In this document: positions 4,977 through 59,917 of the stretch, in pieces
Layout of the letters: each line of letters begins with the position of its first letter
How positions within the stretch are numbered: the first letter of the stretch is position 1
DNA from: Escherichia phage EPIMRB01
Sequence record: PQ657784
Length of the DNA: 64,000 nucleotides
Reading direction: 5' to 3' (one strand)
Translations under genes and position numbers: made by a program
The notes under the pieces: generated by a model
What the model saw: the letters and a program-made list of their open reading frames with translations, nothing else
Told to the model about the DNA's origin: nothing
Database searches by the model: none

Positions 4977-5153
4977 TTACCCTTTAAGTAAGTCGTAAAA
5001 TCCACCATTCACATGCTTAGGAGCAGAAGGCCGACGAGTAGACAAACGATGACATTTAGGACAAACATCATTTTCTCGTTCAGAAATCTTTTTAATTTTT
5101 TCATATTCATGCCCGCAATCTTCGGATTGGCATTTATAATCATACATTGGCAT
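4977..5153 (-). CDS. small zinc-ribbon protein (two CxxC pairs)
   Basis: 58-aa ORF read by hand, MPMYDYKCQSEDCGHEYEK...CPKCH; AAGGA SD 7 nt upstream; below track length cutoff. Confidence 0.4.
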   Translation of the reverse strand: MPMYDYKCQSEDCGHEYEKIKKISERENDVCPKCHRLSTRRPSAPKHVNGGFYDLLKG

Positions 5154-5207
5154 AATTATTCCTTAAAATGTGCTTTCAGCATCTGATACAAAGACCATGC
5201 CTGTTCA

Positions 5208-5582
5208 TTATTTTTCAATAGTAACTTTCATGACCGGGAATTCTGTGAAATCTTCTATTTGTTCTTGCTCTTTCTCTTCCTGCTCTTGCTCTTCGGCTGC
5301 CTGGTATGGATTTTCCACTTCATCAAAGAACGCAGCTTCGCTCGCTGAAAGCCAGATAAAATCTTCATCCAAAATATCTTTACCAGAAGATAACGCCAAT
5401 TTTCCACTAGATGTCACAAGTTTAGTAGGACGACCAAGATAGTCAATATCTGTAACTCTAAAAGGTTCCATACCTAAACGTCGTGCATAAATTCCGTTTT
5501 CAGTATGATATTTAATAAATTTTTCTTGAGCTTGTTTATTTTTAAATTGATACCATTTATTAACTTCAAATTTAATAGCCAT
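5208..5582 (-). CDS. hypothetical protein with acidic C-terminal tail
   Basis: 124-aa ORF. Confidence 0.5.
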
Positions 5583-5797
5583 TAATAAATTTCCTTCCAG
5601 TAAGTTGTTCCATCTTCAGTAATTTCACGAAATACACCATAAATTGGTTGTTTATCACCGACTTTCTCATACACATAAACCGAAGTCAAGTGAGTAAACT
5701 TAACGATATGTTCCTTTTGAACCACTACCAAATCTGGATCAAATAATACATCTTCAAATTCGTCATTAGTGCAATTCTGAACAATTTTACGTTTCAT
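5582..5797 (-). CDS. hypothetical small protein (size and position compatible with cef)
   Basis: 71-aa ORF overlapping neighbour stop; synteny only. Confidence 0.4.
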
Positions 5798-11748: not shown

Positions 11749-12351
11749 TTATAGATTAAATCCTTCAAAATCAAGAGTATAGATAGTGTATGTTGAATAC
11801 TTTTTATACTCATATCTATCTGCAATTCTAAATACACTTCCAGCTGGTATCATTACTTCTTGTTCATCTGAAACTAATTCCATATTACGATAACGATGGC
11901 TATCCGGAAACTTAAAGTTTGGATTGTATTCTTTACAGCGTAGAGCTTTTATGGCATACTCCTGGAAATTGAATACCATAGGAGCTTTGAATTCAAAAAT
12001 AACCTGTGTGTTATACTCTAAACCGGAAGCAAAATGTAGAGCTATATTTTTATCATATGAAGCTGATACGACTTTATCAAATGTAATAATATCAATTCCT
12101 TGATTTAATACTTGCTTAGTCTCAGCTGGAACACCTCTCCAAAGAGGTTTATCGTTTGGAACCAAACGAGATTTGATTATTTCATTTAACCAAGTATGGT
12201 CATCTGGCTTATTAGTAATACAATGAATTAAAAGTTCAATTTCAGATAAATTAAACCCTTCAGAAAGTAATTCTTCACGAATAGAAGCACGCACCGATGC
12301 ATCCATTGATTTTATTTTAAAATCTTTTAGTTGCATTACTGAGTATTTCAT
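11749..12351 (-). CDS. modA: ADP-ribosyltransferase ModA
   Basis: 200 aa as T4 ModA; R / S-x-S / E-x-E ART motifs (WRG, SAS, EQE). Confidence 0.8.
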   Translation of the reverse strand: MKYSVMQLKDFKIKSMDASVRASIREELLSEGFNLSEIELLIHCITNKPDDHTWLNEIIKSRLVPNDKPLWRGVPAETKQVLNQGIDIITFDKVVSASYDKNIALHFASGLEYNTQVIFEFKAPMVFNFQEYAIKALRCKEYNPNFKFPDSHRYRNMELVSDEQEVMIPAGSVFRIADRYEYKKYSTYTIYTLDFEGFNL

Positions 12352-12971
12352 TCAACTACCTCAATATCATAAACTTTAAATGTTCCAAACGAATCGTGTA
12401 ATTTTTCTTTTGAAATAGAAGTTATTTTATACTTTCCAATTGGAATCATCCATTCTTGTTCATGTACAATCATCATTAAGTTATCAGTACGCTCTGAATC
12501 TAATCCATCAGTATCTTCATATGTATACTTAAACTCAGTATTAGGAGAAGAAAGTATAATATCGCTGATATGGTCAGAATAATTAAAAGCTTTATCAGTT
12601 TTTAAACGAAGTATTGTTTCAGTGAAATATTCAGCATAAGAAAAAGAACATGCTGTATGCAAACTAGTAGTAAATGAATCTACCCTGTTCGTTGAAAACA
12701 CTTCTCCAACTTGTAAATCTTTAATGAGTTCTTTTGTCGATTTTGATATACCACGATATAATTGATAAGGCGATTTAGTTAAATGCTTTTTAATGATTTT
12801 ATTCAACTGTCTGTGAAGAGCTTCATTCTTTTTGGCTTCCATACATTGCCAAAGAATTGATTGTTCAAAATCAGTAAACTTTTCACAAACCTTTTTATAC
12901 ATATCATGTTGAAAATCAACGCTTTCAGCTTTTATAGATAACTGTTCAACATCTGCAAGATTAATAATCAT
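12348..12971 (-). CDS. modB: ADP-ribosyltransferase ModB
   Basis: 207 aa as T4 ModB; YRG, STN, EQEW motifs; GGAGG SD. Confidence 0.8.
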   Translation of the reverse strand: MIINLADVEQLSIKAESVDFQHDMYKKVCEKFTDFEQSILWQCMEAKKNEALHRQLNKIIKKHLTKSPYQLYRGISKSTKELIKDLQVGEVFSTNRVDSFTTSLHTACSFSYAEYFTETILRLKTDKAFNYSDHISDIILSSPNTEFKYTYEDTDGLDSERTDNLMMIVHEQEWMIPIGKYKITSISKEKLHDSFGTFKVYDIEVVE

Positions 12972-17825: not shown

Positions 17826-17871
17826 ATTAACCTTTATTCATAAAAGCATTAAAAATTTGGTCATCAATAGA
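17823..17871. repeat. 49-bp direct repeat, copy 2 (3' end of 61.2-like gene)
   Basis: see copy 1. Confidence 0.8.
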
Positions 17872-18453
17872 AACATTTACTTTAGACTGTTTTTCTGATG
17901 GTAATTCATATCCACATATTACAATTTTGTGATCAATATCAAAATACACAGAAGCAATATGATTAATGATGTTTTCAGTAAAGTCTAAATCAACATCAAT
18001 ATCTTTTTGACCACAGCCCAAAGGATAAATAATGCGAGTAATTCGATTATCTTTAACAAATATTCCACCGACATACTCTGTGCTGCGTTTAAAGTCTACA
18101 CGCCGACGAAATGAAAAATATTCAGGCTCTCTATGAGCTCGGCTCATAGGACACAACGAGTAACTAGAATAAGAGATGTCAAATCCTACACCTTCGATAT
18201 GAGCCAAAGTGTTATGATTAAACCAATTATAATCGTACGCCAAATCCATTAGATTATAATATGTAAAAGGCACCGGATTAACATCATTAGTCACAAGCAT
18301 GTAATTAGCAACTGCTATAATTTCATTGTTTTTAACGAATACAAACCGTGATTGATGCGAATGACCTGGACCCGCGTTTTCACGATTAATGATATAACAC
18401 TGGGCACCTTTATATTTGTATGTATCTCTGCACTTGTGCATTTGATAGAGCAT
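17827..18453 (-). CDS. hypothetical protein (61.2 position)
   Basis: 208-aa ORF; ends ...SIDDQIFNAFMNKG. Confidence 0.5.
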   Translation of the reverse strand: MLYQMHKCRDTYKYKGAQCYIINRENAGPGHSHQSRFVFVKNNEIIAVANYMLVTNDVNPVPFTYYNLMDLAYDYNWFNHNTLAHIEGVGFDISYSSYSLCPMSRAHREPEYFSFRRRVDFKRSTEYVGGIFVKDNRITRIIYPLGCGQKDIDVDLDFTENIINHIASVYFDIDHKIVICGYELPSEKQSKVNVSIDDQIFNAFMNKG

Positions 18454-56699: not shown

Positions 56700-57281
56700 C
56701 TAACCGAGCTTTTTAGTTAATTCGTTCCAGTGTTTTCTACACAAAGAAACATAAATTTCATCACCAATACAGATTTGATTACCTTCTTTAACTGGTGTTC
56801 CATCTTCCATTAATCGAGCTGTCATAATCGCTTTTTTGCCGCAATGACAAACTGCCTTTAGTTCAATAAGTTTATCTGCAATCGCTAAAAGTTCTTTAGA
56901 ACCTTCAAACAATTTTCCAGCGAAATCAGTCCTTAATCCATAAGCCATAACAGGAACATTATATGTATCAACAATTCGACTTAATTGATGCACCTGTTCA
57001 GTTTTTAAAAACTGAGCTTCATCTACAAATACGCAATGAATATCTTTTTGTGCTTCAGCCCATTTATAGAACTCGAAAATATCCATATCATCTGTAATAA
57101 TATTCGCTTCCTGCTTAATTCCAATGCGAGAAACAACTTCACAGACAGAATCGCGAGTATCAATAGCAGGCTTAAGAACTAATACACCCATTCCACGTTC
57201 TTTATAATTATGTGCAGCAGTCAAAAGAGAAGCAGATTTTCCAGCATTCATTGCTGCATAAGTAAAAATTAAACTCGCCAT
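56700..57281 (-). CDS. tk: thymidine kinase
   Basis: 193 aa as T4 Tk; P-loop AMNAGKS. Confidence 0.95.
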   Translation of the reverse strand: MASLIFTYAAMNAGKSASLLTAAHNYKERGMGVLVLKPAIDTRDSVCEVVSRIGIKQEANIITDDMDIFEFYKWAEAQKDIHCVFVDEAQFLKTEQVHQLSRIVDTYNVPVMAYGLRTDFAGKLFEGSKELLAIADKLIELKAVCHCGKKAIMTARLMEDGTPVKEGNQICIGDEIYVSLCRKHWNELTKKLG

Positions 57282-57476: not shown

Positions 57477-57646
57477 ATATTAATTTCCAGGAGTTTTAAA
57501 ATAATTCGCTTTTGCTTAAATATTTCCATAGTTAAATGATCAGTATCTTTTTGACCAATTCCAATGGCAAAACCTTTATTAGCAGCGAGTTCAATTAAAT
57601 TATCAAGCTCACGTAACACTTCGTATTGTAACTCAAAACTATTCAT
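57473..57646 (-). CDS. hypothetical small protein
   Basis: 57-aa ORF read by hand; ATGA overlaps at both ends. Confidence 0.35.
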   Translation of the reverse strand: MNSFELQYEVLRELDNLIELAANKGFAIGIGQKDTDHLTMEIFKQKRIILKLLEINI

Positions 57647-57870
57647 TTTGGTTTACCTTCTTTAACGAAATCTGGATAAGGATAAAATCCCGAATAAAAT
57701 CCTTCACCTTTATGATTGATACATCCTTTATTAGAACAATAGCACCAATAATCGAAATCACAAGTCATTTCATCGTTGCATAAAGCAAAAACAACCGGCC
57801 ACTTACACTTTTCACAGTGGGCATTTTTAAGAATACTAGTTTGGCTCATAACCATGTAACCTTTAAGCAA
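57643..57870 (-). CDS. hypothetical Cys-rich protein
   Basis: 75-aa ORF with about nine Cys. Confidence 0.45.
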   Translation of the reverse strand: MLKGYMVMSQTSILKNAHCEKCKWPVVFALCNDEMTCDFDYWCYCSNKGCINHKGEGFYSGFYPYPDFVKEGKPK

Positions 57871-58058
57871 TATTCTTCTACATGTTGTTTACGACCTTTC
57901 TTATCAATAAAGGTATATTCAACGAATGTTCCAATGTAGTCTTTATCTACATCATGTGGACTATTAATTGGGCATTTAGTACGGCAAATGCGTTCCCATT
58001 GACGAATAATTACTGCTTTGTTTTTAGGATCAAACGGATGTGGGTAATGTACTTTCAT
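57846..58058 (-). CDS. hypothetical protein
   Basis: 70-aa ORF. Confidence 0.4.
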   Translation of the reverse strand: MKVHYPHPFDPKNKAVIIRQWERICRTKCPINSPHDVDKDYIGTFVEYTFIDKKGRKQHVEEYCLKVTWL

Positions 58059-58509
58059 AATCCACCACTATTAAATCAATATCAGGAGTAAACATGTCGA
58101 TTAATTTAGAAACCTTATCCCAATCGCCGCCAGCAATACCACAACCTATACGCGGAATGTAAATTACCGGTTTAAACAAAAGGGTTTCTGCCTGTAGATT
58201 TAATTCTATCATGCAGTTTACTAAAGCACCATAATCAAGATTAGGACCTGGTTCGTATTGCGTATACAAGTTATAACATATGCCAAACCCATTAGGTTTA
58301 TGTTTAAAAACAATAGACATATCACCGAGTTTTTCACGCGAACCATATTCAGTTGTGGTCTTATCTATTTCTAAAATTTTGGGATAGGCTCTTGCTAATT
58401 GACCAGCTACACCACTGCCCATTGTATGAAAACAGTTACACCCGTGCGCAATAATATTACCTTCAAGAAAGAGGGCGACAATATCGCCCTTGATATATTT
58501 TACAATCAT
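58030..58509 (-). CDS. macro domain protein (ADP-ribose binding/processing)
   Basis: 159-aa ORF with macro-domain-like motifs (HGCNC, MGSGVAGQLA). Confidence 0.65.
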   Translation of the reverse strand: MIVKYIKGDIVALFLEGNIIAHGCNCFHTMGSGVAGQLARAYPKILEIDKTTTEYGSREKLGDMSIVFKHKPNGFGICYNLYTQYEPGPNLDYGALVNCMIELNLQAETLLFKPVIYIPRIGCGIAGGDWDKVSKLIDMFTPDIDLIVVDYESTLPTSV

Positions 58510-58853
58510 CTAGTACTCAATCCTCGATTATAAGAATCTACTAAACGGTCAACCATTGAATGACAAGCGGCTTTATCTTTTTCCTCCGCAACTGAACATT
58601 CTAGGGTATTCCACTTTTTAGCATATCGTTTTAATAATGTATCGTTTTTGTATCTGCTTGATTTATCTCTTTCTCCGTCTTTATATGCATATATTAATTT
58701 CTGCGCAAATTCAGCTTGGCATGCTTTATTTTTCCCACAATAATCTGCCGCAGTGCGGTTCACATACTCCCTAATTTCAGTATATGATGTATCTGCTGAC
58801 GCATAAGCAGAAAATGAAATTAATCCTATACATAAAACCAAAATTTTAGTCAT
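58506..58853 (-). CDS. hypothetical secreted protein
   Basis: 115-aa ORF with signal peptide. Confidence 0.5.
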   Translation of the reverse strand: MTKILVLCIGLISFSAYASADTSYTEIREYVNRTAADYCGKNKACQAEFAQKLIYAYKDGERDKSSRYKNDTLLKRYAKKWNTLECSVAEEKDKAACHSMVDRLVDSYNRGLSTR

Positions 58854-59391
58854 TTACTATTTCCAAAAGTTTATTATTTTTAAGGTAATTAGCCTTTTCT
58901 AGGACTTCAGAAGCATATTTAGAACCTGCTTTAACATTCCATCCCGAATTATAAGAGGATATTGCTTTTCTTATATCGCCCTTATGTATATTTAACCAAT
59001 AAGAAAGTTCAATGTACGCCCAGGAAGCTGAATTGGATCGTTTATTCAACATTCTTTTTATTTCAGCATCGGTCATATTATAACCAAGTTCCTTAACTCT
59101 CGCTCGCATAGTAGGCAAATAATTTTGGAACATTCCGTAAGCATGATGTTTTGGTTTAGATTTTAAATTAACTCCGCCAGAGCTTTCTTGCCATAAAATA
59201 GCAGCCATTATATGACCTAATCCGCTCTTGTGGATATTTTTGTGTGTTTTATATTTTCCATCCTTAGAAAATTGTTCCCCGAATTGATACGCGTAACGCA
59301 TGTTATCGAGTTGGACATTACTGAAAGTATGCTCGGAGCTATGTGCCATCATTGAAATGGCCAATAGACCAGCGAGTAGTGCTTTTCTCAT
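58846..59391 (-). CDS. secreted lytic-transglycosylase-like protein
   Basis: 181-aa ORF with signal peptide and WQESSGG motif. Confidence 0.5.
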   Translation of the reverse strand: MRKALLAGLLAISMMAHSSEHTFSNVQLDNMRYAYQFGEQFSKDGKYKTHKNIHKSGLGHIMAAILWQESSGGVNLKSKPKHHAYGMFQNYLPTMRARVKELGYNMTDAEIKRMLNKRSNSASWAYIELSYWLNIHKGDIRKAISSYNSGWNVKAGSKYASEVLEKANYLKNNKLLEIVND

Positions 59392-59398
59392 GTTTACC

Positions 59399-59860
59399 TC
59401 ATTGAGTTTTAATTACTGCTTTAGAAGCCTTTCCTGGTAAACGACGACTGTTGATAATTGCCATCCTACATTGAAGTGACGGGTCTTTGAACTTCTCATT
59501 AGGTTTACAAACTGTAAATCCAAGCCAAAGATTTCCATCTGTAATTTCTAAACGTCCAGGACGATATTCAACTCCATCAATAAAATCCTCATCAATGTCA
59601 GGACGCGGAGGCATACTCAGGAATTCATTAACTTCTAAAACATGGTCTTTTATTTTATGGAATAATTCAAAAACATATGTCTCATCAATCTCCCGTTGAA
59701 TTGCACGATCAAGAAGATGTTGAGAATATTTTAGATGAAACGATGAGACCCCTGCTGCTTTTGATGCCTCACGAATCTCATTGTTAATTTGACGAAACTC
59801 CGACTCAAAGTGACGACGAAGCTTATTTCGACGGATAAAAACTTCTGTATTGATAGTCAT
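59399..59860 (-). CDS. regB: endoribonuclease RegB
   Basis: 153 aa as T4 RegB; consensus early promoter upstream. Confidence 0.9.
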   Translation of the reverse strand: MTINTEVFIRRNKLRRHFESEFRQINNEIREASKAAGVSSFHLKYSQHLLDRAIQREIDETYVFELFHKIKDHVLEVNEFLSMPPRPDIDEDFIDGVEYRPGRLEITDGNLWLGFTVCKPNEKFKDPSLQCRMAIINSRRLPGKASKAVIKTQ

Positions 59861-59887: not shown

Positions 59888-59917
59888 ATTATACCACAGT
59901 CAAGAGGAAAAGTAAAC
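59888..59917 (-). promoter_or_regulatory. early promoter upstream of regB
   Basis: GTTTAC-N18-TATAAT. Confidence 0.55.

What the first reader, a model, noticed from the sequence alone, without database searches (positions are those of the whole stretch)
58030..58509. Macro domain protein encoded in the same early region as two ADP-ribosyltransferases
The 159-aa protein has a macro-domain signature. The window also encodes ModA and ModB (11749-12971). A phage macro domain could reverse or read ADP-ribosylation, including marks placed by host defence ADP-ribosyltransferases such as DarT.
Basis: partly seen in the sequence, partly recalled or inferred. Interest (0 to 1): 0.4.

Follow-up and report, generated by a model that had tools for sequence, protein, structure and literature searches.

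The report
Phage macrodomain that counters DarT toxin

Summary
The ORF at 58030-58509 (- strand, 159 aa) exists and is a genuine macro domain: Pfam Macro is above its cut-off, the AlphaFold model has pLDDT 92.7, and the best fold matches are TARG1, Poa1p, BT1257, DarG and SCO6735. The window is a Tequatrovirus, 100% identical to phage AUBRB02 over the 1.4 kb compared. The gene lies between vs and tk.3, the position of T4 tk.4. A 2025 preprint renamed T4 tk.4 adfM because deleting it sensitises T4 to DarTG2.

- This copy is only 57-58% identical to T4 Tk.4, although the flanking genes are 96-100% identical. It is a swapped allele, and the commoner of the two among sequenced phages (318 records against 224). 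T2, T4 and T6 all carry the other allele, so this one is untested.
- The family has an invariant Gln where DarG, TARG1 and PhiKZ AdfM have the catalytic Lys. SCO6735, a proven thymidine-ADP-ribose DNA hydrolase, also has Gln there.

ModA and ModB are present but lie 45 kb away, and their distribution among phages is much narrower, so no functional link is supported. Interest is low to moderate.

The parts
58030..58509 (-). Macro-domain gene (159 aa). It is the positional ortholog of T4 tk.4/adfM and belongs to the 'window-type' allele.
   Evidence: ORF. Pfam Macro 34.4 bits against a cut-off of 22. AF2 pLDDT 92.7. Fold matches to TARG1, Poa1p, BT1257, DarG and SCO6735. 58% identity to T4 Tk.4, E=5e-70. 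Same position between vs and tk.3 as in T4.
58059..58471 (-). Divergent cassette, the body of the macro gene. It is about 60% identical to T4 at the DNA level and is embedded in flanks that are about 95-100% identical.
   Evidence: DNA alignment A1. Per-gene protein identity to T4: regB 100, vs.1 100, vs 99, tk.4 57, tk.3 96, tk 99.
58472..58490 (-). GC-rich hairpin (8-bp stem, 3-nt loop, about -12.6 kcal/mol) in codons 7-13 of the macro gene, at the left edge of the divergent cassette. It is followed by a T-rich tract and was flagged as terminator-like.
   Evidence: The stem is identical in T4, G3G7 and a Dhakavirus, and absent in Klebsiella phage Marfa. Function unknown.
58506..58853 (-). 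vs (valyl-tRNA synthetase modifier), the upstream gene. Its stop codon overlaps the macro gene's start codon (ATGA), which suggests co-transcription and translational coupling.
   Evidence: The vs-macro gene pair is conserved in Tequatrovirus, Dhakavirus and Marfavirus.
57846..58058 (-). tk.3 homolog (DUF7202, 70 aa), the downstream gene. It overlaps the macro gene's 3' end by 29 nt because of a 13-nt deletion relative to T4.
   Evidence: Pfam DUF7202 E=8e-39; alignment A1.
59888..59916 (-). Sigma-70-like promoter match (TTTACT-17-TATAAT with an extended TG) upstream of regB. It is a candidate early promoter for the regB-vs.1-vs-macro transcription unit. This is an inference only.
   Evidence: It is a consensus match only, and the number of such sites in the region does not exceed the shuffled controls.
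11749..12971 (-). modA (11749-12351) and modB (12348-12971) ADP-ribosyltransferase genes. They are named in the finding but no link to the macro gene was shown.
   Evidence: 99% and 97% identical to T4 ModA and ModB; PHROG 832; 45.7 kb from the macro gene.

Best explanation
The gene encodes a stand-alone macrodomain of the TARG1/DarG/SCO6735 ('ALC1-like') clade. It most likely acts as an orphan antitoxin. When the host DarT2 toxin ADP-ribosylates thymidines in single-stranded phage DNA, the enzyme binds the ADP-ribose in its cleft and hydrolyses the N-glycosidic bond, which restores replicable DNA. That makes it an anti-DarTG2 counter-defence, i.e. an allele of T4 tk.4/adfM. Catalysis would follow the SCO6735-type route, in which an invariant Gln (Q84) positions the distal ribose for attack by an activated water, rather than the Lys-based chemistry of DarG and TARG1. 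Shown here: the fold, the clade, positional orthology to tk.4, and conservation of the key residues. Taken from the literature: the T4 ortholog is needed for DarTG2 resistance, and a Gln-type macrodomain cleaves dT-ADPr. Inferred: this particular allele has the same substrate and role, and it is expressed early together with regB and vs.
For: (1) Macro domain: Pfam above cut-off and a confident model.
(2) Clade: the best Foldseek hits are TARG1 (2e-10), Poa1p, BT1257, DarG 5m31/5m3i (about 1e-8 to 1e-7) and SCO6735 (1e-7). The best PDB sequence hits are BT1257 (1e-10), Poa1p and DarG (1.2e-5). The only PADLOC hit is DarG (3.4e-7), and the top NCBIfam hit is antitoxin_DarG.
(3) Orthology: the gene has the same slot and the same ATGA overlap with vs as T4 tk.4, at 58% identity and E=5e-70.
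(4) T4 tk.4 knockout is sensitive to DarTG2.
(5) Residues: 15 columns are invariant across 46 homologs down to 39% identity, including H22, N25, Q84 and the two Gly-rich loops (G31/G33 and G122/G124). hhalign (98.9% probability) puts N25 opposite DarG N22 and Q84 opposite DarG K80.
(6) SCO6735 has Q85 at that site, cleaves dT-ADPr on ssDNA, is dead as Q85A, and protects against DarT (PMC9411070). SCO6735 H24, N27, Q85 and the loop PRIGCGLAGGxW correspond to the window's H22, N25, Q84 and PRIGCGIAGGDW.
(7) A non-orthologous phage macrodomain, PhiKZ gp104, removes DarT2 marks in vitro (PMC13309987).
Against: - The experimentally tested T4 allele is only 57-58% identical to this one. Identity is 33% over residues 50-79 and 21% over residues 132-155.
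- T2, T4 and T6 all carry the other allele, so no phenotype exists for this one.
- T4 Tk.4 has only genetic evidence, with no biochemistry, and it comes from a preprint.
- The window protein lacks the SCO6735 lysines K34 and K89 that position DNA (it has S32 and a shorter loop), and its net charge is -5.
- The ALC1 macrodomain also has Gln at this site and is, from general knowledge, a non-catalytic reader.
- Similarity to Poa1p is as strong as similarity to DarG.
Confidence: 0.7

Rival explanations
1. This allele has a different target from the T4 allele. It could be a different DarT2 variant, ADP-ribose on another base or on RNA (for example mRNA ADP-ribosylation by CmdT-like toxins), or stoichiometric inhibition of the toxin by binding. 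The cassette exchange would then reflect specificity switching in an arms race.
For: - Two deeply diverged alleles (57% identity) sit in near-identical flanks.
- The window allele is closer (70%) to a Dhakavirus allele than to T4's.
- Divergence is concentrated away from the catalytic motifs.
- Loop 2 differs: GCGIAGG here against GAGIGKG in T4.
- Catalytically dead SCO6735 also inhibits DarT through interaction.
- T-even phages are reported to stack several anti-DarT factors with allele-specific activity (PMC11825919).
Against: All invariant active-site residues are shared by both alleles. There is no experimental hint of a second substrate. Allelic mosaicism is common in T-even accessory genes, and the adjacent tk.2 slot is also swapped.
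Confidence: 0.15
2. It is a housekeeping small-molecule ADP-ribose enzyme, such as a Poa1p-like ADP-ribose-1''-phosphate phosphatase or an O-acetyl-ADP-ribose deacetylase. This is what the RefSeq label 'phosphatase' and the JGI label 'O-acetyl-ADP-ribose deacetylase' imply.
For: - Poa1p is among the best sequence matches (2e-9) and fold matches.
- The motif H-x-C-N-C is shared with Poa1p (IHSCNC).
- T4 annotates tk.4 as 'phosphatase; A1pp motif'.
- Iyer et al. argue that many phage macro domains may act on soluble ADPr derivatives (PMC9503650).
Against: The only phenotype known for the ortholog is sensitivity to DarTG2. From general knowledge, no source of Appr1p is known in T4-infected E. coli. 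In vitro Appr1p or OAADPr activity is widespread among macrodomains and would not exclude the DNA role.
Confidence: 0.08
3. It erases or tunes the phage's own protein ADP-ribosylation by Alt, ModA and ModB. This is the association highlighted by the first reader.
For: ModA and ModB are present in the same genome. From general knowledge, writer-eraser pairs are common. At least one macrodomain (MavL) is arginine-specific (PMC10951314, listed).
Against: - The genes are 45.7 kb apart with no shared operon.
- The macro family is in 2768 phage records including Pseudomonas (184), Vibrio (139) and Acinetobacter (93). ModB homologs are in 1010 records, almost all enterobacterial T-even-like.
- From general knowledge, the Mod and Alt enzymes make Arg-linked ADPr, while the characterised substrates of this clade are Glu/Asp esters and thymidine.
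- tk.4 was not a fitness hit in T4 without DarTG2.
Confidence: 0.04
4. It is a non-catalytic ADP-ribose reader or sponge, like the ALC1 macrodomain.
For: The catalytic Lys of DarG and TARG1 is replaced by Gln, as in ALC1.
Against: SCO6735 is active with Gln at that position. ALC1 also differs at N25 (D), G124 (A) and G128 (F), whereas the window protein keeps the SCO6735 states. A stoichiometric sponge is an unlikely way to repair DNA adducts.
Confidence: 0.03

Closest known systems
T4 Tk.4 = AdfM (anti-DarT factor Macrodomain), bioRxiv 10.1101/2025.11.20.689424
   Same: Same genomic slot (vs | macro | tk.3) with the same ATGA overlap with vs. Similar length (159 against 155 aa). 58% identity, E=5e-70. 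All family-invariant residues are shared, including H22, N25 and Q84.
   Different: It is a deeply diverged allele: 57% identity against 96-100% for the neighbouring genes. Loop 2 is GCGIAGG instead of GAGIGKG. A 13-nt deletion gives a different C-terminal tail that overlaps tk.3. It has not been tested experimentally, and T2, T4 and T6 all carry the T4-type allele.
Streptomyces coelicolor SCO6735 (PDB 5e3b) and its close homolog BT1257 (2afc/2fg1): orphan Gln-type macrodomains. SCO6735 cleaves dT-ADPr on ssDNA (PMC9411070).
   Same: Stand-alone macrodomain. Gln at the DarG-K80/TARG1-K84 position. H, N and the PRIGCG(L/I)AGGxW loop are conserved. BT1257 is the best PDB sequence match (1e-10).
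   Different: About 25% identity. It lacks the longer mobile loop and the DNA-positioning lysines K34 and K89. It is phage-encoded rather than a bacterial SOS-type gene.
DarG antitoxin of DarTG2 (Taq 5m31/5m3e, Mtb 5m3i)
   Same: Same fold and clade (Foldseek about 1e-8 to 1e-7; hhalign 98.9% probability). The N22 equivalent is conserved. The presumed substrate is the same.
   Different: No catalytic Lys (Q84). No C-terminal DarT-binding domain. No adjacent darT. The NCBIfam DarG score is 28 bits against a cut-off of 250.
PhiKZ gp104, also named AdfM (PMC13309987)
   Same: A phage-encoded stand-alone macrodomain that neutralises DarT2, with de-ADP-ribosylation of T-ADPr DNA shown in vitro.
   Different: Not orthologous. 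gp104 is a true DarG-clade, Lys-type protein (E=9e-25 to Mtb DarG, FPTK motif). It aligns with the window protein over only 31 aa at E=1e-3. The shared name hides two independent recruitments.
Human TARG1/OARD1 and yeast Poa1p
   Same: Top structural matches. TARG1 also removes dT-ADPr from DNA (PMC8501950, listed).
   Different: The TARG1 K84/D125 dyad is replaced by Q84/A126. Poa1p is a small-molecule phosphatase.

Membership tests
Macro domain (Pfam PF01661) | Profile score above the curated gathering threshold | tested here: met
   34.4 bits against 22, E=2.4e-8, profile positions 2-117 of 118
Macro domain (Pfam PF01661) | Alpha/beta/alpha macro fold | tested here: met
   AF2 pLDDT 92.7, pTM 0.88. 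174 PDB matches with E<=1e-3, and the top 50 are macrodomains or designs built on them.
Macro domain (Pfam PF01661) | Gly-rich ADP-ribose/phosphate-binding loops | tested here: met
   M30-G31-S-G33-V-A35 and P119-x-I-G122-C-G124-I-A-G-G are invariant or nearly invariant in 46 homologs
TARG1/DarG/SCO6735 ('ALC1-like') macrodomain clade | Closest sequence and structure relatives are members of this clade rather than MacroD-type, PARG-type or viral Mac1-type proteins | tested here: met
   Foldseek ranks 1-19 are TARG1, Poa1p, BT1257, DarG and SCO6735, with SARS-CoV-2 Mac1 appearing only from rank 25. phmmer gives the same set.
T4 Tk.4 / AdfM | Positional orthology (between vs and tk.3, start overlapping the vs stop) and significant full-length similarity | tested here: met
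   58% identity over 155 aa, E=5e-70, identical flanks
T4 Tk.4 / AdfM | Protects the phage from DarTG2 | not testable with these tools
   Shown only for the T4 allele. The window allele is 57% identical and untested.
SCO6735-type (Gln-type) dT-ADPr DNA hydrolase | Gln at the position of DarG K80 / TARG1 K84, plus the H24 and N27 equivalents | tested here: met
   Q84, H22 and N25 are invariant in the family and align to SCO6735 Q85, H24 and N27
SCO6735-type (Gln-type) dT-ADPr DNA hydrolase | Extended mobile loop and the DNA-positioning lysines K34 and K89 | tested here: not met
   S32 lies at the K34 position. The loop after Q84 is about 5-6 residues shorter and has no Lys.
SCO6735-type (Gln-type) dT-ADPr DNA hydrolase | Hydrolysis of thymidine-linked ADP-ribose on ssDNA | not testable with these tools
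   Needs an enzyme assay
DarG (type II antitoxin, NCBIfam NF048014) | Equivalog score cut-off and two-domain architecture (macrodomain plus C-terminal DarT-binding domain) | tested here: not met
   28.1 bits against a cut-off of 250. The match covers model positions 2-142 of 338 only, and the protein is 159 aa. PADLOC DarG 3-144 of 329.
DarG (type II antitoxin, NCBIfam NF048014) | Catalytic lysine (Taq K80) | tested here: not met
   Q84 aligns to K80
DarG (type II antitoxin, NCBIfam NF048014) | Adjacent darT toxin gene | tested here: not met
   The neighbours are vs and tk.3
PhiKZ-type AdfM (gp104) | DarG-clade sequence with the FPTK catalytic-Lys motif | tested here: not met
   BLASTP aligns only 31 aa at E=1e-3. 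The window has NLYTQ where gp104 has MFPTK.
TARG1 | K84/D125 catalytic dyad | tested here: not met
   Q84 and A126 lie at those positions.
Poa1p (ADP-ribose-1''-phosphate phosphatase) | Residues probed in Poa1p structures (H23, S30, F152) and phosphatase activity | tested here: inconclusive
   The H23 equivalent (H22) is present within the shared H-x-C-N-C motif. The other residues were not reliably aligned, and activity is not testable here.

The most novel reading that the evidence does not exclude
Two deeply diverged adfM alleles (57% identical) circulate as a ~410-bp cassette within otherwise near-identical T4-like genomes. The window carries the commoner, untested allele. The most novel reading is that these are specificity variants maintained by an arms race, each tuned to different DarT2 toxins or to different ADP-ribosylated nucleic-acid targets. 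The conserved hairpin at the cassette edge would then act as a recombination or expression signal.
Probability: 0.15. Interest if true: 0.5.

Novelty: new member of a known kind. Interest (0 to 1): 0.25.

Why it matters
DarTG systems are widespread anti-phage toxin-antitoxin defences. Knowing which phage genes neutralise them helps predict host range, for example in phage therapy. This gene belongs to a family present in about 5% of sequenced phage genomes. The useful additions here are modest.
- The allele that has been tested (T4, and also T2 and T6) is not the commonest one in sequenced T4-like phages.
- The T4-type 'AdfM' is a Gln-type enzyme like SCO6735, not a Lys-type DarG-like enzyme as PhiKZ 'AdfM' is. 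Two mechanistically different macrodomains therefore share one name.
- The suggested link with the phage's own ModA/ModB enzymes has no support.

Tried and rejected
- Pfam and NCBIfam on the putative ModA and ModB gave no hits. Their identity was settled by PHROGs and direct comparison with T4.
It was rerun without it.
- The phmmer pairwise alignment to BT1257 misplaces the Gln motif because of a loop-length difference. Profile-profile alignment and a multi-sequence MAFFT alignment resolved it.
- The idea that loss of the catalytic Lys makes the protein inactive, or a mere reader, was considered and rejected after reading the SCO6735 work.
- The promoter and terminator scan gave no enrichment of promoter-like sites over shuffled controls, so the expression timing is inferred rather than shown.
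- A literature search for 'AdfM' returned mostly noise. No biochemistry on T4 Tk.4 was found.
- T2 and T6 were checked in the hope that they carry the window allele, which would have given indirect phenotype data. They carry the T4 allele.
- adfN (T4 gene 30.3) was not looked for in the window.

Full report
**1. Observation**

The ORF 58030-58509 on the - strand encodes 159 aa, exactly as reported. It matches Pfam Macro (PF01661) at E=2.4e-8 and 34.4 bits, above the gathering score of 22, over almost the whole profile. It also matches PHROG 335 at E=1.7e-71. An AlphaFold2 model built on 46 homologs is confident, with mean pLDDT 92.7 and pTM 0.88; only the last four residues are disordered. Its best PDB fold matches are all macrodomains. 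tblastn finds relatives in 2768 of 50,697 phage records. The macro-domain observation is therefore confirmed.

However, they lie 45.7 kb from the macro gene.

**2. Where we are**

Window 57600-59000 is 100% identical to Escherichia phage AUBRB02 and 95-99% identical to about 150 other Tequatrovirus records. The local gene order on the - strand is regB (59399-59860), vs.1 (SLT domain), vs (58506-58853), the macro gene, a DUF7202 gene (tk.3, 57846-58058) and so on to tk (56700-57281). This matches T4, where the gene between vs and tk.3 is tk.4, annotated 'phosphatase; A1pp motif'. The macro gene's ATG overlaps the vs stop codon (ATGA). The vs-macro pair is conserved in Tequatrovirus, Dhakavirus and Marfavirus.

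**3. What is known about the ortholog**

A November 2025 preprint (10.1101/2025.11.20.689424) used transposon sequencing in T4 and found tk.4 as the single gene needed specifically on a DarTG2 host. A clean deletion sensitised T4 to DarTG2, and the gene was renamed adfM. The evidence is genetic, and enzymatic removal of ADP-ribose was inferred.

Independently, PhiKZ gp104 was also named AdfM. That protein was shown in vitro to remove DarT2-placed ADP-ribose from thymidine in ssDNA (PMC13309987).

Earlier work had noted that T4 lacking adfA and adfN stays resistant to DarTG2, and predicted a further factor (PMC11825919).

**4. Which kind of macrodomain**

By sequence, the best solved relatives are BT1257 (1e-10), Poa1p (2e-9), SCO6735, Mtb DarG (1.2e-5) and TARG1 (7e-3). 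By fold they are TARG1, Poa1p, BT1257, DarG and SCO6735. PADLOC and NCBIfam both report DarG as the top hit, but far below family thresholds and covering only the macro half of the model.

PhiKZ gp104, by contrast, is a true DarG-clade protein (9e-25 to Mtb DarG). It is barely alignable to the window protein (31 aa at E=1e-3). The two proteins called 'AdfM' are therefore independent recruitments.

**5.

In 46 homologs down to 39% identity, the invariant residues are G8, H22, G23, N25, C26, G33, A35, G62, N80, Y82, Q84, P119, G122, G124 and W130. Profile-profile alignment to DarG (98.9% probability) and a multi-sequence alignment place N25 opposite DarG N22. They place Q84 opposite the catalytic lysine of DarG (K80), TARG1 (K84) and PhiKZ AdfM (K78).

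At first sight this is a missing catalytic residue. However, SCO6735 carries Gln85 at exactly this site. It efficiently cleaves dT-ADPr on ssDNA, loses all activity as Q85A or Q85E, and protects Streptomyces from DarT; a water-activated mechanism was proposed for it (PMC9411070).

I recovered the SCO6735 sequence through its close homolog BT1257. The window protein shares H22/H24, N25/N27, Q84/Q85 and the loop PRIGCGIAGGDW/PRIGCGLAGGTW with it. It lacks the DNA-positioning lysines K34 and K89 and the longer mobile loop. The TARG1 dyad partner D125 is Ala here.

The protein therefore fails membership of DarG proper. It has no Lys, no C-terminal domain and no adjacent darT. It fits a Gln-type enzyme of the same clade and plausibly works on the same substrate.

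**6. A divergent allele**

Protein identity to T4 is 100% for regB, 100% for vs.1, 99% for vs, 96% for tk.3 and 99% for tk, but only 57% for the macro protein. At the DNA level, identity collapses about 38 nt into the gene and recovers at the tk.3 start codon.

The window allele is more like that of a Dhakavirus (70%), whose other genes are only 45-70% identical to the window's. This points to cassette exchange rather than local drift.

Among sequenced phages, 318 records carry the window-type allele at >=90% identity, against 224 for the T4 type. T2, T4 and T6 all carry the T4 type.

Divergence is lowest around the catalytic motifs and highest elsewhere:

| Residues | Identity to T4 Tk.4 |
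|---|---|
| 1-49 | 86% |
| 80-100 | 71% |
| 50-79 | 33% |
| 132-155 | 21% |

A 13-nt deletion relative to T4 makes the last eight codons overlap tk.3. These residues are the low-confidence tail of the model.

**7. The link to ModA and ModB**

Nothing supports a functional link. There is no proximity. ModB homologs occur in 1010 records, essentially all enterobacterial T-even-like phages. The macro family occurs in 2768 records, including Pseudomonas (184), Vibrio (139), Acinetobacter (93) and Felix-O1-like phages.

From general knowledge, the Alt and Mod enzymes modify arginine, which is not a known substrate of this clade. Macro domains are also common in myoviruses in general (41% according to PMC9503650).

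**8. Verdict**

It has already been demonstrated genetically for the T4 ortholog and biochemically for analogous enzymes. What is left open is whether this commoner, 57%-identical allele has the same specificity, and how a Gln-type active site without the SCO6735 lysines handles DNA.

I put about 0.7 on 'dT-ADPr DNA glycohydrolase acting as an anti-DarTG2 orphan antitoxin'. Interest is low to moderate.

Noticed in passing
window 58059-58471: The body of the macro gene is a swapped allele. It is 57% identical to T4 Tk.4 at the protein level, while the neighbouring genes are 96-100% identical. It is closer (70%) to a Dhakavirus allele. The window-type allele is in 318 phage records and the T4-type in 224.
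   Followed up: partly
window 58472-58490 (- strand): A GC-rich hairpin (AGGGCGATATTGTCGCCCT, about -12.6 kcal/mol) followed by a T-rich tract lies within codons 7-13 of the macro gene, exactly at the edge of the divergent cassette. The stem is identical in T4 and in a Dhakavirus and absent in Klebsiella phage Marfa. It was flagged as terminator-like on both strands. Its role is unknown.
   Followed up: partly
window 57643-57870 (- strand): The slot downstream of tk.3 holds a 75-aa 'Phage zinc binding domain' protein (PF23895, E=2.7e-29). The sequence there does not align with T4's tk.2 region, so this is a second swapped cassette right next to the first.
   Followed up: no
window 17827-18453 (- strand): A 208-aa homolog of T4 gp61.2 (AdfA, a reported anti-DarT1 factor) is 95% identical to the T4 protein. 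It keeps the same Asn-His at positions 164-165 as T4. The window therefore carries a second anti-DarT gene.
   Followed up: partly
window 58030-58058: A 13-nt deletion relative to T4 shifts the macro gene's stop codon, so its last 8 codons (ESTLPTSV) are read from inside tk.3 in another frame. These residues have pLDDT below 50.
   Followed up: partly
L008 (phage T6, AP018814) 5132-5599: The T6 copy of Tk.4 reads TMKAGVAG where T4, T2 and the window read TMGSGVAG. This replaces the nearly invariant G31 of the first phosphate-binding loop with Lys. It could be a functional variant, a defect or a sequencing issue.
   Followed up: no
literature: Two non-orthologous phage macrodomains have both been named AdfM: T4 Tk.4 (Gln-type, BT1257/SCO6735-like) and PhiKZ gp104 (Lys-type, DarG-like).
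   Followed up: yes
window 58846-59391 (- strand): The vs.1 homolog has an SLT lytic-transglycosylase domain (Pfam E=1.4e-5) and a hydrophobic N-terminus that looks like a signal sequence. It is annotated only as hypothetical in T4 and AUBRB02.
   Followed up: no
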